64,000 bases of DNA from assembly GCA_000002445.1 (NCBI GenBank), contig CP000071.1, positions 64,001 to 128,000 of the forward strand. The letters run 5' to 3'. Every line of letters starts with the position of its first letter. Position 1 is the stretch's first letter. Position numbers: made by a program. Origin of the DNA: Trypanosoma brucei (Eukaryota). Positions 41,701-50,700 of the stretch are shown piece by piece.

Positions 41701-44700
41701 TTGGAGGAGGAACGTGATTGTGTAGATTATGAAGAAAGATTCATGTTGATTTCACATAGTGGTGAAAGTCGAGAAGCCCCATTCATTCATTTTACAGGAC
41801 AGACTATTGTTTGGGAGGCGCACGTGAAGTTGATTGTGAAAAGTCTTAGTTGGTATAGAGAATTGGAAGGAAAGAAATTTAGAAGAAAGCAGTTGTGTAA
41901 GATTCAAATATATGTGATCGATGGCAGGAAATTGGATCTTGAATATGCTAATGCTTGTGGTTATGTGTTTAATGATAGGAATTTGTTTAAAGCTAAGAAG
42001 TTGTAACGTCATAAAATTAATAGGACATAAACCACATAGGCACAGCAAGGAGGCACAAGAACTCTGAAGTTTACTAACACTGTACACTTCCTAACCAATT
42101 ATGCCAAATCGAAAAAAATGTCAAAGGCTAAGAGGCGAATTAAGAGGCACAAATGCAGCTACAACGACCATTTCTGCTAGTCCTTTTGCTAGTGCCGACA
42201 CAAACGTCAGCCCAAGTAGCGGAAGGCGACAACGCAGCGGTATACAAGCAGCTGTGTAAGTTAATCCGAATCGCAGAGGCGGCAGCAGATATTCCCGTAC
42301 CTCTTTCAGAAGACAAAGCAGACTACGACGCCCTTCACCTACTAAATGCGACCCTCAGCACACCAGAATGGCTAAAGCACTTCGACAAAAAAGGGCCGAC
42401 TAAGGAAAGGCCAACAGCACCGGAAGGCCCACAGGCAAGTGACCAAACTTGGAAGACGCGCTGGGCAAGCTGGCTTGCGGCCGCTACAAAACTAGATGAA
42501 GACGCAACTAAAACAAAGGTTTACAAAGACCTAAAAATTAGCCAACCAACCAAAGCGGAAAAGGAAGCGAGACGCATAGCGATCGCAACAGAATTAGAAG
42601 CCGCTTCCAGAGCTTCCAGCACATTAGCCGAAGCCAAAACCGAATTGGGTGATAACACGAAGCAGAAAGCTCAGGACGCCCTGGAAAAAGCGGCGTTCGG
42701 GAGCAAGGGGAAAACTGCAAGCTCCGCAGCGGCAGCGGACCTCACGAACGCAGGGCCGCCATCGGACGCAAACGACCTCTGCGGCTCACCAGGAACGTCA
42801 ACCGCAGCTGTTTCGCTAACGGGACTAATGATGTGTATTTGTGCAAAAACGGACGCCAGCAGCAAGGAGAAAGCATGCACATCAACCAGCGCGGACAGCA
42901 CAGCAGTAAACGGCAACTTTGCAAATCTAGGGACGTTGATGACAAAGCTAGTAGAAAATTGCCCAGAAAGGGATAAAAGAACACTCACAGGCAGCGAAAT
43001 AAGGCAAGCTCTTAGCGACTTAAAAGCTACCGCGACACGGTCCGACAGTCAAACTGTTTTCGGCAAATTCGTAGCTACCAATTGCCACGGGCACTCGAAC
43101 TCAGGTCAATGCGTCCTGTATAACGGCAATGTAGCCGCCTCAAGAAGCGCTATAGACGGCAGCAAATGGTCGACGGAGCTAACAAAAGCAGCGGCGGCGA
43201 TCGACGCGATAACGAAGCACAACGAGAAGGTAGCGGCAGCGCAGGAAAGAATCCGCCAAGCTAAGGAAGCTGTCATGACAATAATGCAACTGCCCCTGAT
43301 GCCTCATTCAACTCCAGGCATGGCAACAAATAGCAAAACAACACCAGCCGCCACAGACGCAGAGGCCAACCAGAAAAAATGTGACCAACACCACAACAAC
43401 AAAACAGAATGCGAAAAGCTAAAGTGCTCTTATGATGCGAATGCGGCAGATGGTAGAAAATGCAAACCTAAAGAGGGGGAAGGGCAGACAAACCAAGGAG
43501 AAGGAGATGGGGCTTCAGGGGCCACAGCAGCTTCAGCTGGATGTCCAGCACACAAAGATAAAAACACTTGTGAAAATGACAAAACAGGCGACAAGCAAAA
43601 TTGCGCATGGAGAAAGGGAAAAGATAACGAACCTGAACACGAAAAAGAAAAGTGCCGAAATGGTAGTTTTTTGTAAATAATAAATTTGCTCTGATGACTG
43701 CTAGTTTTGCGAGTTTGGTAGCATTTAAGAATTCTAAGGATTTTTGTTAAATTAAATGAAATTTATGAAACTTTGTTATTTTAAAAGAATTTGGTAAAAT
43801 TGATATATTTTGACACTCATTGATGAAAATCGGTGAATTTTTCTAAAAATCAAAAAAATAAAAATTTGGTATGAAAGTAGAATATGGGTGCAAAGTAATA
43901 GGGTTAAAAGGTACAAAAATGAGTGCTATTCTAATTTTGTTTGATATTTTATAAATAATAATGATAATAATAGGAGAGTGTTGTGAGTGTGCATATACAA
44001 ATATTATAATAAAAGTGGTGGTTATGAAAGAATGGACGGTCCAACGTTTAGTAGTTAAAACAATGGGAAGGCTACAATGAAAGTAATTGTGAAGAAAGAG
44101 ATGGAATTGTAGTATGCTCAGTTTAAAACACAGACATAAGGTTGGGAATCATTATACGCGAGGAGTTGATGAAGGGAAAATTCTGGCAAAGACTTACGTG
44201 CACAGGACAAATGGAGGCGCTAATTTATTCGAAGAAGTGGCGGTATTAAAAATAGGGAAGGTAAGTAAAACACGAAATGAAAGAAGGTAGTATGCGACAA
44301 TACAGAGAAGTCAAAAATTATGCAGCAGGAGGACATTTTGTGGCCGTATTTCATTAAAAAATGGAAATATGCAATGCAGGAGATGATGTTGTGATTGTGA
44401 TTTTTATTATGGTGTCTCAGCCTAATGAGAACCTCCGAGGACAGGGGACGCCATTTTGTAGGGCAGATGTGTGGGTTGTTTGAAGTAGTGAAAGGGCAGG
44501 CTGTTGAAGGCAGAGGGCAGAAAGTGCTATGGAGACCGAGGTCCATCTACCTTCGTTTTTCAGAACGAGTAAATGCTAACATCCAAACCAAATGTGTTAA
44601 ATCTGCGTCGGAGAAAAATGCCAAGCAAGAGCTACAGCTGAATTCGCAAGCTTTCACACATTTAATACGTTTTTATCGGCAACAGTTGGTGTTTTTATAA

Positions 44701-47700: not shown

Positions 47701-50700
47701 CGATGCTTAGCGCAGCAATGATTAAGACTTGTAACTGAGCTTGCGGCGAACACTGTTTATCATACAATGCAAAAACACAACTAGAAACTTGTACCAACAT
47801 TCCCACTGGAGATATTCAGACAACGATTCCTTTAGTTCATATGATTACTCGACACAACCCAACATTCTAGGCAAAGAAATCCAACGAGTGCAACACAGAC
47901 ACCTTTAATGTAGAAATGAAAAACTCAATCCAGTCCACAAAAGAATTAAGTCTAAAATGTGTTACAGTATAAGGTTAGACCATCGTAACCTTATAAACAA
48001 AAAAAGACGTAAGACAAACTACATGAAGCGGCCTCGGACTGACTTTCAACGAAATGAGCTTCCCTTTCAAATAATCTACAATCACAATGTAACTTCAAAA
48101 TTCACACTGTTTTCGCCTTCAGAACCGAAGCAATATTGGAATAGACTATAGCAGATATGCAACAACGAAGAATCAATGATACAACAAAGCCGAAGCCGCC
48201 AACAGTTTCTGTTCGCTGTAACACACTTATCTCAGCGGTCATTGCCGCCCTGCTGGTCATAACAAAAACGGAGGGAACAGCGGGTAACGCTATGTCAAAA
48301 GCGGCAGCGACACGGTTGTGCAAACTCAGTCAAAACTACATAAAAACCACAAAGGGCGCAATAGGAGCAGTCAAACAGTGGGAGAAAAAAATCACCAACC
48401 TCCAGCTCCTCCACTTACGGCTCCAAACCGCCGCCTGCGCCGCACCTATGGCAGAGCAACCTGCATTAAATGTCCTTGTAACGTTTGTCGGCAACAAAAT
48501 CAACTCTTATGTCAATAAACTGACCGCCATGACACAAAAAGCAATACCAGCAGCAGCAGCTTCCATGTATGCAGCGGGACACATCAAACAAACAATAGAC
48601 GTTTTTGCGGCGGCAAAAGCCAGCGACGCGGCGACACGTTTTTGCCTGCACTTAACCGGACCAGATTCAGGAGCAGGACAACTTAACACCTTAATACCAG
48701 AGCGCTCAGAAGAAGTAAATTTTGACGGAACGCAAACAAAACTCGAACCAGAGTTTGACTACGCAAACAGCGATGAAAGCGGCGCGGTGCACACTACACA
48801 GAACACGAACACCCAAAGCTGCCAACTAACCGACGCGGGCAGCAGCAAAGGTTACACAGCAGGCGCGGCGACAGACGGCAACGGCATATCATGGGCAGGC
48901 GGATTATTCAAGGTCTCAACGGGCAGCCCAACAATGACGAGCGTTCACCAAGCAAAAGCAAACAACGCAGGACCAACACCACCAATCGTAGTAATCGCAG
49001 CAAAACACAATGCGGAACTGGCCGCCTGCGAACAGGCTCCAGAGATCGTTGTCGACCACGGCAATTTCGAATCATGGAAAGCTGACGGCGACCTACAACA
49101 ATCAGTAGAAGCAGCTCACCTAGCACAGGCACAAATAACCAAACTACCCGCCGGCACAACCAAAGACGAACTTAGGAAAAAACTCGTAGGAGACACACAA
49201 GCAGAATTCAACAGCAAAATATGGGACAAACTAAAAGAGTACTCGGTCGAGAAAAGCAGCGCCGATGAAATACAAACTAAAACACTAAAAGAGCTTAGCA
49301 CTAAAACAGAGCTAGAAGAAGCACTAGCTCGCTGCCAACAGAAACGCCGCCAAGAGACCACCAAACTAATTGAGGAGGCAAAAATACGGAAACAAATGCC
49401 AAAAGAAAAACAAACCGAAAGGGACGAAACATGCGAAAAGAAAGGAACAGGATATAACTGCAAAGAAGGTTGTAAATGGGATAGCGACGGTGGAAACAAA
49501 AAATGCGTAGTGGATCCTGATTACAAGCCACCACGAGGAGAGGGAGCAAAGAAGATGGGAAGAAAGAAAAGAAATGCTCCGATAATAAAAAAAAGGAAGA
49601 TTGCACTGGAAATCACAAGTGGGAATGTGATGCTTTCAAAGATTCCAGTTTTCTTGTAAATAAGAAAATTTTTTGATGACCGTTGCTTTTATGAGCTTGG
49701 TAGCATTTAAGAATTCTAAGGATTTTTGTTAAATTAAATGAAATTTATGAAACTTTGTTATTTTAAAAGAATTTGGTAAAATTGATATATTTTGACACTC
49801 ATTGATGAAAATCGGTGAATTTTTCTAAAAATCAAAAAAATAAAAATTTGGTATGAAAGTAGAATATGGGTGCAAAGTAATAGGGTTAAAAGGTACAAAA
49901 ATGAGTGCTATTCTAATTTTGTTTGATATTTTATAAATAATAATGATAATAATAGGAGAGTGTTGTGAATATGTATATACTAATATTATAATGAGTGTCG
50001 GAGTGAAGACTAAAGTGAAAGCACAAATAGAAGTAATTTAAAATGGTAATAGTTTAATGGGAGTAAGTGAGTGAGCGTGACAGTGGCGGAGTGAAATATA
50101 GGATAAAGGAGGTGGAATATGCACAATTTTAAAGCACAAACACGATGACGGGCATAATTATGCACAAGGAGGTTAATGAGGTGATAATGATTGAGAAAAT
50201 AACTTTAGTGTACATACCAAGAGTAACTACGTTACACGCAGCAATAGTGAGAGAGGACAATAAGAAAAGAAAGTACAAAACAAAATAACATAATGGGCTG
50301 TAAAAACACAGAAGTAAACGATTCAAGAGGAAATAATGTCCTTTATTTCACACAAATTTATTTATGTCACTAATGAGACGATGTCGGCAACTGTAGTTTT
50401 TAGTGTGATGGACTATCCTTATATTTAACAGTAAATAAAGAACATAAGGAGGAAGCGAGTGGGTAAGTGTCAGATATTATTGATGTCTTTTTCTTATTGG
50501 ATGTAATAATAATCGAAAATTGGAGGGAAACAATATAATATTATTGGAAGAAGAAATTTAATACTAGGACTGCTAGTGCATGACTGTGAACATAAAAAGT
50601 AATAAACCACAGGAAATTTTTAAATCTAACAAGAAAAAACTTTATGTGAAAGAGAAAAAATTAGAAGCAACATTTATTTAATTCCGTTTGGTATATTAGT

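What the first reader, a model, noticed from the sequence alone, without database searches (positions are those of the whole stretch)
42153..49968. Mosaic 3' ends and a perfectly duplicated 272-bp downstream flank link three VSG cassettes (42153, 48157 and 61412)
The last 57 bp of the 42153 VSG region (43677-43733, out-of-frame GPI tail INNKFALMTASFASLVAF) are essentially identical to the in-frame 3' end of the intact VSG at 62934-62990, and their CTDs are about 90% alike. From TTGGTAGCATTT onward, the sequence downstream of the 42153 VSG (43715-43986) is identical to that downstream of the unrelated 48157 VSG (49697-49968). The shared stretch includes a TTTTAA-to-TTTAAG change that deletes the terminal stop, a variant 16-mer TGATATATTTTGACAC, and the run up to the 70-bp repeat. 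The identity boundary sits exactly at the VSG 3' end. This is the signature of recent segmental gene conversion using the conserved 3' block as the downstream homology limit, seen here between silent array members.
Basis: seen in the sequence. Interest (0 to 1): 0.6.

Follow-up and report, generated by a model that had tools for sequence, protein, structure and literature searches.

The report
Patchwork gene conversion between silent VSGs
In a silent surface-antigen (VSG) gene array of Trypanosoma brucei, one pseudogene recently had its tail and downstream spacer overwritten by short copies from two neighbours, which is a clean but ordinary example of how this antigen archive is already known to evolve.

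Summary
Window 43715-43986 and 49697-49968 are identical at 272/272 bases, with a mismatch on each side. The other 54 pairs of VSG 3' flanks in the window are 64-72% identical. The last 54 nt (not 57) of the 42153 VSG tail are identical to the 61412 VSG, and a second perfect 49-nt block lies upstream. Overall CTD identity is 85%, not about 90%.

The window is a silent VSG array of T. brucei TREU927 (probably chromosome 8). Syntenic T. equiperdum contigs give the direction of transfer. The counterpart of the 48157 locus carries the flank, including the stop-loss and the variant 16-mer, with 11 differences. The counterpart of the 42153 locus has a normal stop and an unrelated flank, but matches on both sides of it.

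So a short patch of 227-272 bp was copied recently from the 48157 flank (or an identical copy) into the 42153 locus. Its limits are the 12-bp TTGGTAGCATTT block and the 70-bp repeat. Separate short patches from a 61412-like donor rebuilt the 42153 CTD.

The geometry is different: the spacer was converted, not the VSG. Gene conversion among silent VSGs is well documented, so interest is modest.

The parts
42153..43676 (+). VSG pseudogene ORF (B-type N-terminal domain plus CTD), truncated by a frameshift just before the GPI signal. Recipient of all the patches.
   Evidence: Pfam VSG_B 1e-61 and Trypan_glycop_C 6e-15. 100% identical to EATRO1125 VSG 1125.457. Frame analysis.
43476..43535 (+). First 61412-like patch in the 42153 CTD (imperfect; approximate limits).
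   Evidence: Informative sites switch from favouring the syntenic T. equiperdum homologue to favouring 61412. For segment 43493-43566 the counts are 19:15 against 9:45 upstream, Fisher p=1.7e-4.
43567..43615 (+). Perfect 49-nt block shared with the 61412 VSG (62826-62874).
   Evidence: Exact repeat. Informative sites 10:0 for 61412 over the T. equiperdum homologue, Fisher p=6e-7.
43671..43672 (+). Site of the 1-nt deletion (TTTTCTAG to TTTTTTG) that frameshifts the 42153 VSG. It lies immediately 5' of the 54-nt block.
   Evidence: Alignments. Frames.
43673..43726 (+). Perfect 54-nt block encoding the GPI signal (VNNKFALMTASFASLVAF, out of frame here), identical to 62933-62986 of the 61412 VSG.
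   Evidence: 54/54 identical and bounded by mismatches. Informative sites 18:0, Fisher p=1e-10. The peptide is unique to the 61412 VSG among 70 VSGs.
43715..43726 (+). TTGGTAGCATTT, the 12-bp junction shared by 42153, 48157 and 61412. Left crossover zone of the flank patch.
   Evidence: It is the overlap of the 54-nt block and the 272-nt block, visible in alignment A2.
43715..43986 (+). Recipient copy of the 272-bp flank: stop-less end (TTT AAG), 3'UTR with variant 16-mer (43801-43816), spacer, and the first part of the 70-bp repeat.
   Evidence: 272/272 identical to 49697-49968. Absent from the syntenic T. equiperdum contig L001 between 43727 and 43953.
48157..49659 (+). A-type VSG pseudogene ORF. 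It has two frameshifts in the CTD/GPI region plus the stop-loss.
   Evidence: Pfam Trypan_glycop 4e-30 with no CTD hit. Three-frame reading. EATRO1125 VSG 1125.1036 has the same frameshifted tail.
49697..49968 (+). Donor-lineage copy of the 272-bp flank, native to the 48157 locus.
   Evidence: T. equiperdum contig L002, syntenic with 47491-50006, carries the same flank with 9 mismatches and 2 indels, including TTTAAG and TGATATATTTTGACAC.
61412..62989 (+). Intact B-type VSG, annotated 'VSG, atypical' (XP_846885.1, TREU927). Donor or donor-like source of the CTD and GPI-signal patches (62826-62874 and 62933-62986).
   Evidence: Identical to P0008. Pfam VSG_B and CTD. In-frame GPI signal and TAA stop.

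Best explanation
The window is a silent subtelomeric array of VSG cassettes in Trypanosoma brucei TREU927. The 3' end of the 42153 VSG pseudogene is a patchwork made by several short, non-reciprocal, homology-directed copying events (ectopic gene conversion) from neighbouring silent cassettes.

Event 1 (the 272-bp identity). The 3'UTR and spacer of the 42153 cassette were overwritten with the corresponding segment of the 48157 cassette 5,982 bp downstream, or of an identical copy elsewhere in the genome. The minimal tract is 43727-43953 and the maximal tract is 43715-43986. The left junction lies in the 12-bp TTGGTAGCATTT at the end of the GPI-signal coding sequence. The right junction lies inside the first 70-bp repeat of the next cassette. 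The patch brought in defects that were already old at the 48157 locus: a lost stop codon and an A-to-G variant of the 16-mer needed for VSG mRNA stability.

Events 2 and later. Shorter patches of about 50-60 nt from a 61412-like donor replaced parts of the 42153 CTD and its whole GPI-signal sequence.

Shown here: the identities, their specificity, the breakpoints, the polarity (from the T. equiperdum comparison) and the relative recency.

Inferred: the mechanism. I favour break repair by synthesis-dependent strand annealing, plausibly started by a break in the 70-bp repeat and ended by annealing in the conserved GPI-signal block. The order of the events is also inferred.

Consequence: both pseudogenes have unusable 3' ends. 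They can contribute to antigenic variation only if their N-terminal domains are copied into an expression site with the 3' end supplied by another VSG ('3' donation').
For: Specificity: 272/272 identity bounded by mismatches, and unique to this pair. It is the longest exact repeat in the window. The other flank pairs are at most 71.7% identical.

Polarity: L002, the T. equiperdum contig syntenic with 47491-50006, carries the flank at 95.7% with the same stop-loss and variant 16-mer. L001, syntenic with 40583-46999, matches up to 43726 and again from 43954 at 95-98%. In between it has a TTT-TAA stop and an unrelated flank.

Recency: 0 differences between the two TREU927 copies, against 11 between TREU927 and T. 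equiperdum at the 48157 locus. P is about 1.7e-5 if the two were the same age.

CTD patches: informative sites are 10:0 and 18:0 for 61412 in the two perfect blocks, against 9:45 upstream (Fisher p=6e-7 and 1e-10). Two perfect runs of 54 and 49 nt have P about 5e-5 under uniform 85% identity. The GPI peptide is unique to the 61412 VSG among 70 VSGs.

Literature fit:
- Silent VSGs undergo short-tract conversion, with mean tracts of 14-80 nt (PMC3472502).
- A quarter of 3'-donation boundaries fall in the GPI-signal region, with local homology of 13-143 bp (PMC3708902).
- Recombination sites show about 12 bp of perfect identity on average (PMC13233330).
- Expressed TREU927 VSGs with a 48157-like N-terminal domain carry other, intact CTDs.
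Against: The T. equiperdum contigs may be close paralogues and not strict orthologues. Their VSG bodies are only 84-88% identical to the window, and L002 is a gapped short-read scaffold.

Only 64 kb of one haplotype is visible. The immediate donor of either patch could be a third copy elsewhere in the genome, and one unseen donor combining the 61412-type tail with the 48157-type flank is not excluded.

The 61412 VSG has no close relative in the databases (next hit 42%), so the polarity of the 42153-61412 exchange rests only on L001.

The 13 bases just right of the tract (43987-43999) match neither 48157 nor L001, so the right junction is not precisely resolved.

The repair mechanism is inferred, not observed.
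Confidence: 0.8

Rival explanations
1. The two cassettes descend from a duplicated cassette. The VSG body of one was later replaced by a classical cassette conversion running from the upstream 70-bp repeat to the conserved 3' block, and the 272-bp flank is what remains of the duplication.
For: The identity starts 12 bp before the end of the VSG coding sequence, which is the classical downstream limit of VSG duplicative transposition.
Against: Identity also stops abruptly inside the next 70-bp repeat, and nothing further downstream is shared. A duplicated cassette would therefore need a second replacement on that side.

L001 is collinear with the 42153 VSG and with the next cassette, and differs only in the flank.

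Zero differences in 272 bp means the shared segment is itself young.
Confidence: 0.08
2. Opposite polarity, or a third-party donor. Either the flank is native to the 42153 locus and was copied to 48157, or both copies were converted from an unseen third copy elsewhere in the genome.
For: Perfect identity carries no information about direction. Only 64 kb of the genome could be examined.
Against: The T. equiperdum counterpart of the 48157 locus has the flank and the counterpart of the 42153 locus does not. The reverse direction therefore needs at least two extra events. A third copy as an intermediate is compatible with the main explanation, because the 48157 flank lineage would still be the source.
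Confidence: 0.08
3. Assembly or finishing artefact. Reads from one flank were recruited to the other locus during assembly of a repetitive array, producing a false perfect patch bounded by conserved elements.
For: The boundaries fall in sequence elements shared by all cassettes, where assemblers are most likely to err. Perfect identity is what a collapse would give.
Against: Flanking similarity on the two sides is low: roughly 10 mismatches in the 50 nt to the left and about 5 in the 24 nt to the right. That is too little to mislead overlap assembly of long Sanger reads spanning 272 bp.

The truncated 42153 ORF is reproduced independently in EATRO1125 (VSG 1125.457, 100%). The flank is independently present at the 48157 locus in T. 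equiperdum.
Confidence: 0.04

Closest known systems
Diversifying short-tract gene conversion among silent archive VSGs (Marcello & Barry 2007, from my own knowledge; Gjini et al. 2012, PMC3472502)
   Same: Non-reciprocal copying of short segments between silent subtelomeric VSG copies in TREU927. The CTD patches here (about 49-60 nt) fall within the reported mean tract range of 14-80 nt.
   Different: Those analyses covered coding sequence of high-identity VSG pairs. Here the largest tract (227-272 bp) is non-coding, lies between cassettes, and joins VSGs of different N-terminal classes (A-type and B-type).
3' donation and segmental gene conversion during VSG expression (Hall et al. 2013, PMC3708902; Nature 2026, PMC13233330)
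   Same: Breakpoints in the CTD and GPI-signal region, use of local imperfect homology, and about 12 bp of perfect identity at the junction. The result is a chimeric VSG 3' end.
   Different: Those events are seen in the active expression site and are selected because they produce a functional VSG. Here both partners are silent array copies, and the product is still a pseudogene that gained extra defects.
Classical duplicative transposition of a VSG cassette (70-bp repeat to conserved 3' end)
   Same: It uses the same two conserved homology blocks, the 70-bp repeat and the VSG 3' end.
   Different: The copied interval is the complement of the classical cassette. It runs from the VSG 3' end to the next 70-bp repeat, so the spacer is exchanged and not the gene.

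Membership tests
Trypanosoma brucei silent subtelomeric VSG array | Tandem, same-strand VSG genes and pseudogenes with VSG N-terminal and C-terminal domains | tested here: met
   Pfam VSG_B, Trypan_glycop or Trypan_glycop_C on ORFs at 5785, 12435, 31262, 39051, 42153, 48157, 54408 and 61412, all on the + strand.
Trypanosoma brucei silent subtelomeric VSG array | Conserved 3'UTR 16-mer downstream of each VSG, and 70-bp repeats between cassettes | tested here: met
   11 16-mer-like sites against 1.4 expected by chance. 9 matches to the 70-bp repeat core against 0 expected. TRF arrays of 66-75-bp period.
Trypanosoma brucei silent subtelomeric VSG array | Assignment to a T. brucei genome | tested here: met
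   The 61412 VSG is identical to XP_846885.1/AAZ12819.1 of T. b. brucei TREU927, on a contig of 2,481,190 bp. Reading that contig as chromosome 8 is my own knowledge and was not tested.
Ectopic (non-allelic) gene conversion tract | A segment much more similar between two paralogous loci than their surroundings, with sharp boundaries | tested here: met
   272/272 identity against at most 72% for other flanks. Flanking DNA beyond the conserved elements is unrelated.
Ectopic (non-allelic) gene conversion tract | Phylogenetic incongruence: the orthologous or syntenic locus in an outgroup lacks the segment at the recipient and has it at the donor | tested here: met
   L001 lacks the flank and L002 has it. 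Caveat: strict orthology of the T. equiperdum contigs is not proven.
Ectopic (non-allelic) gene conversion tract | Non-reciprocity: the donor is unchanged, and the event is not a crossover | tested here: inconclusive
   The donor locus keeps the flank that T. equiperdum has, and gene order is collinear with L001 and L002. This is consistent with conversion. A double crossover cannot be formally excluded from one haplotype.
3' donation (expression-linked VSG segmental conversion) | It occurs in the active expression site and yields an expressed, functional chimeric VSG | tested here: not met
   Both partners lie inside a silent array, and the product is frameshifted, lacks a stop and carries a variant 16-mer. 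The event resembles 3' donation in mechanism but is not a case of it.

The most novel reading that the evidence does not exclude
Breaks in the 70-bp repeats of silent, non-transcribed array cassettes may be repaired by copying a neighbour's spacer. Defective 3' ends (no stop codon, crippled 16-mer) would then spread horizontally through the archive. That would homogenise pseudogene tails, so that array VSGs could be expressed only through 3' donation or mosaic formation. Under this reading, spacer-only conversion would be a regular archive-shaping process and not a one-off event.
Probability: 0.12. Interest if true: 0.5.

Novelty: new member of a known kind. Interest (0 to 1): 0.3.

Why it matters
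This gives a well-resolved, polarised example of archive evolution in the reference strain. Three nested patches (49, 54 and 272 bp) sit in one pseudogene tail, and the junctions are mapped to a 12-bp block and to the 70-bp repeat. It shows three things:
- Silent array members exchange non-coding spacer as well as coding sequence.
- Exchange happens between A-type and B-type VSGs that share only the generic 3' elements.
- Conversion can propagate damage (stop-loss, 16-mer variant) as readily as it repairs it.

None of this changes the current picture of VSG archive dynamics. It is a useful illustration, and a possible marker for dating recombination in subtelomeres.

Tried and rejected
- Exact-protein look-ups of the 42153, 48157, 61412 and 44919 ORFs, and of P0008, in the contig index found nothing. 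No second T. brucei assembly of these loci could be retrieved. Only T. equiperdum contigs were obtained, through homologues P0003 and P0035.
- The homology search with the 61412 VSG found no close relative (next hit 42%). Its 3' end could not be polarised independently.
- The first flank-identity matrix had degenerate alignments from free end gaps. It was recomputed.
- The first BLAST of the loci mixed L001 and L002, because both sit in one file. It was redone per locus.
- Marcello & Barry 2007 (PMC1950903) is not held in the library. Statements about it rest on my own knowledge and on citations in other papers.
- 'Generic conservation' of the flank is rejected.
- 'Generic GPI-signal consensus' as the reason for the 54-nt block is rejected.
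- I considered that the mosaic was assembled in an expression site and then returned to the array. I rejected it because the 3'UTR attached to the 61412-type tail is the 48157 array flank, not an expression-site or 61412 UTR.
- The bacterial, phage and plasmid collections were not searched, because they are irrelevant to a trypanosome locus.
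Full report
WHAT THE WINDOW IS

All large ORFs lie on the + strand. Those tested carry trypanosome VSG domains. The 42153 and 61412 ORFs have VSG_B plus the VSG C-terminal domain, and the 48157 ORF is A-type. Fragments at 5785, 12435, 31262, 39051 and 54408 are also VSG_B.

Eleven 16-mer-like 3'UTR elements are present, against 1.4 expected by chance. 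Nine 70-bp-repeat cores are present, against 0 expected. Together they divide the window into about 11 cassettes.

The 61412 protein is identical to XP_846885.1, 'VSG, atypical', of T. b. brucei TREU927, on a 2.48-Mb contig. The 42153 ORF is 100% identical to VSG 1125.457 of strain EATRO1125. The window is therefore a silent subtelomeric VSG array of the reference strain.

CHECKING THE OBSERVATION

Window 43715-43986 equals 49697-49968 at all 272 positions, and the bases on either side differ. No part of this segment occurs elsewhere in the window. It is the longest exact direct repeat in the 64 kb.

Global alignment of the equivalent 272-nt flank of all 11 cassettes gives a median identity of 67.3% and a next-best value of 71.7%.

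The link to 61412 is also real, but it needs correction. The identical block is 54 nt (43673-43726 = 62933-62986). A second perfect block of 49 nt lies upstream (43567-43615 = 62826-62874). Overall CTD identity is 85.4% over 246 nt.

Three of the four longest exact repeats in the window involve the 3' end of the 42153 VSG. The fourth is a 54-bp match between two 70-bp-repeat copies.

STATE OF THE THREE GENES

The 61412 VSG is intact, ending ...CRNGCFLVNNKFALMTASFASLVAF followed by TAA.

The 42153 VSG has a 1-nt deletion (TTTTCTAG to TTTTTTG) that ends the ORF at 43676. This puts the GPI signal out of frame.

The 48157 VSG needs two frame changes to read its CTD and GPI signal.

Both pseudogenes read TTT AAG where the stop should be. 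Against flanks that keep a stop (55990: TTT TAG TAT TCT AAGG; 6770: TTA TAA CAT TCT AAGG), the TTT AAG AAT TCT AAGG version aligns without a gap.

The shared flank carries TGATATATTTTGACAC, one A-to-G change from the canonical 16-mer. That element is required for VSG mRNA stability and CFB2 action (PMC8051951).

POLARITY AND AGE OF THE 272-BP IDENTITY

Two contigs of T. equiperdum OVI (GCA_001457755.2) were retrieved through homologous VSGs.

L002 is collinear with window 47491-50006. Its VSG is 88% identical to 48157. It is followed by the same flank, with 262 matches, 9 mismatches and 2 indels across the 272-bp core. It includes both TTTAAG and the variant 16-mer.

L001 is collinear with window 40583-46999. 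Its VSG aligns at 83.7% up to exactly 43726, and alignment resumes at 43954 at 95-98% through the next cassette. The interval in between is unrelated: it has a normal TTT TAA stop, its own 3'UTR and a canonical-type 16-mer.

The flank is therefore native to the 48157 locus and foreign to the 42153 locus. The two TREU927 copies show 0 differences, against 11 between TREU927 and T. equiperdum at the donor locus. P is about 1.7e-5 if the two were of equal age, and the upper bound on the age is about a quarter of that divergence. The transfer is recent.

The tract is at least 43727-43953 and at most 43715-43986.

THE JUNCTIONS

The left junction is the 12-bp TTGGTAGCATTT, the last four codons of the GPI signal. 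It is shared by 42153, 48157 and 61412. To its left, the two loci differ at roughly 10 positions plus gaps over 50 nt.

The right junction lies in the first 70-bp repeat, after TAATAATGATAATAATAGGAGAGTGTTGTGA. The next 13 nt of 42153 match neither 48157 nor L001, so the exact crossover on this side is unresolved.

A 12-bp perfect junction within imperfect homology matches what has been measured for VSG recombination. The average is 12 bp (PMC13233330), with local homology of 13-143 bp for 3' donation, a quarter of whose boundaries fall in the GPI-signal region (PMC3708902).

THE CTD PATCHWORK

I aligned 42153, its T. equiperdum counterpart (L001) and 61412, and counted informative sites.

- 43380-43492: 45 sites favour L001 and 9 favour 61412.
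- About 43476-43535: the sites favour 61412.
- About 43536-43566: the sites favour L001 again.
- 43567-43615: 10:0 for 61412 (p=6e-7).
- 43616-43672: mixed, with six changes unique to 42153, including the frameshifting deletion.
- 43673-43726: 18:0 for 61412 (p=1e-10).

Two perfect runs of at least 54 and at least 49 nt have P about 5e-5 under uniform 85% identity. The GPI peptide VNNKFALMTASFASLVAF occurs in none of the other 69 VSGs retrieved, and the nearest differs at 7 of 18 residues.

The 42153 tail has therefore received several short patches from 61412 or an identical donor. Their sizes are of the order reported for silent-archive conversion (means of 14-80 nt, PMC3472502). EATRO1125 encodes the same truncated ORF, so the frameshift at least is not private to the TREU927 assembly.

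MECHANISM (INFERRED)

The simplest account is repeated homology-directed repair of breaks at the 42153 3' end, using ectopic silent cassettes as templates.

For the flank patch, I suggest a break in or near the 70-bp repeat. This would be followed by invasion of the 48157-side repeat, synthesis back through the spacer, and annealing in the conserved GPI-signal block. That would give exactly the observed tract. The donor locus stays as it is in T. equiperdum, and gene order is unchanged, which fits conversion and not crossover.

The copied interval is the complement of the classical VSG cassette. The spacer moved, not the gene. That is why an A-type and a B-type VSG share it.

CONSEQUENCE

Neither pseudogene can be expressed with its own tail. 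Expressed TREU927 VSGs from Hall et al. 2013 (AGQ49860 and relatives) share long identical stretches with the 48157 N-terminal domain, but they carry other, intact CTDs.

Hall's Table S1 lists a chromosome 8 donor, Tb927.8.420: A-type, CTD type 1, CTD-pseudogenic, used through mosaicism plus 3' donation. This fits 48157, but I could not verify the gene identifier.

RIVAL EXPLANATIONS

- Reverse polarity needs at least two extra events.
- An unseen third donor cannot be excluded with only 64 kb of sequence.
- An assembly artefact is unlikely given the low similarity on either side, but it is untested.

VERDICT

The phenomenon belongs to a well-known kind, gene conversion shaping the silent VSG archive. 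The one modestly unusual feature is a non-coding, spacer-only tract that spreads 3'-end defects between unrelated VSGs.

Noticed in passing
window 3309, 13380, 32254, 36128, 43801, 46524, 49783, 55990, 63063 versus 6770, 40052: Only 2 of the 11 cassettes keep the canonical 16-mer TGATATATTTTAACAC. The other nine have 1-2 substitutions, so most array copies here would need a donated 3'UTR to be expressed stably.
   Followed up: partly
window 46440-46470 (46524 cassette); 3200-3268 (orf1838): Stop-codon loss after the GPI signal recurs independently. The 46524 cassette reads GCA TTT CAG CAT. The orf1838 GPI tail reads through as ...LLLAVLFCHNTFTLFYQFNEIYKTH*.
   Followed up: no
window 1838-3268 (+): A 476-aa ORF with a signal peptide, a VSG-like GPI tail, a downstream 16-mer-like site (3309) and a 70-bp repeat (3531), yet no Pfam VSG domain hit. 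It gives only weak phmmer hits to A-type VSGs. It may be a divergent or atypical VSG N-terminal domain.
   Followed up: partly
L001 1372-3425 and L002 131-1896 versus L001 3700-6613 and L002 2023-2348: Between TREU927 and the syntenic T. equiperdum contigs, the VSG coding regions are far more diverged (83.7% and 88.2%) than the adjacent non-coding or next-cassette DNA (95-98%). This is consistent with accelerated change of VSG bodies by mutation or conversion.
   Followed up: no
L002 1897-2035: The T. equiperdum scaffold has runs of N and a misplaced 77-bp piece of the flank (L002 1936-2012 = window 49859-49935, 100%). This is most likely a short-read scaffolding artefact.
   Followed up: partly
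window 48157-49450, with proteins P0031 and P0071-P0079: Expressed TREU927 VSGs from Hall et al. 2013 share long identical stretches with the 48157 N-terminal domain, for example the first 76 residues of P0031. They differ in clusters and carry different CTDs, as expected for mosaics plus 3' donation. Set_64 donor Tb927.8.420 fits 48157, but the gene ID is unverified.
   Followed up: partly
window 43671-43673: The frameshifting 1-nt deletion in the 42153 VSG sits immediately 5' of the perfect 54-nt 61412-like block. This raises the possibility that it is a scar of an imprecise conversion junction. The same truncated ORF exists in EATRO1125.
   Followed up: no
window 44919-46540: The cassette between the two flank copies is a degenerate VSG. 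The 291-aa ORF has no Pfam hit, but a CTD remnant lies at about 46170-46455 by tblastn, followed by a 16-mer with 2 mismatches at 46524.
   Followed up: partly
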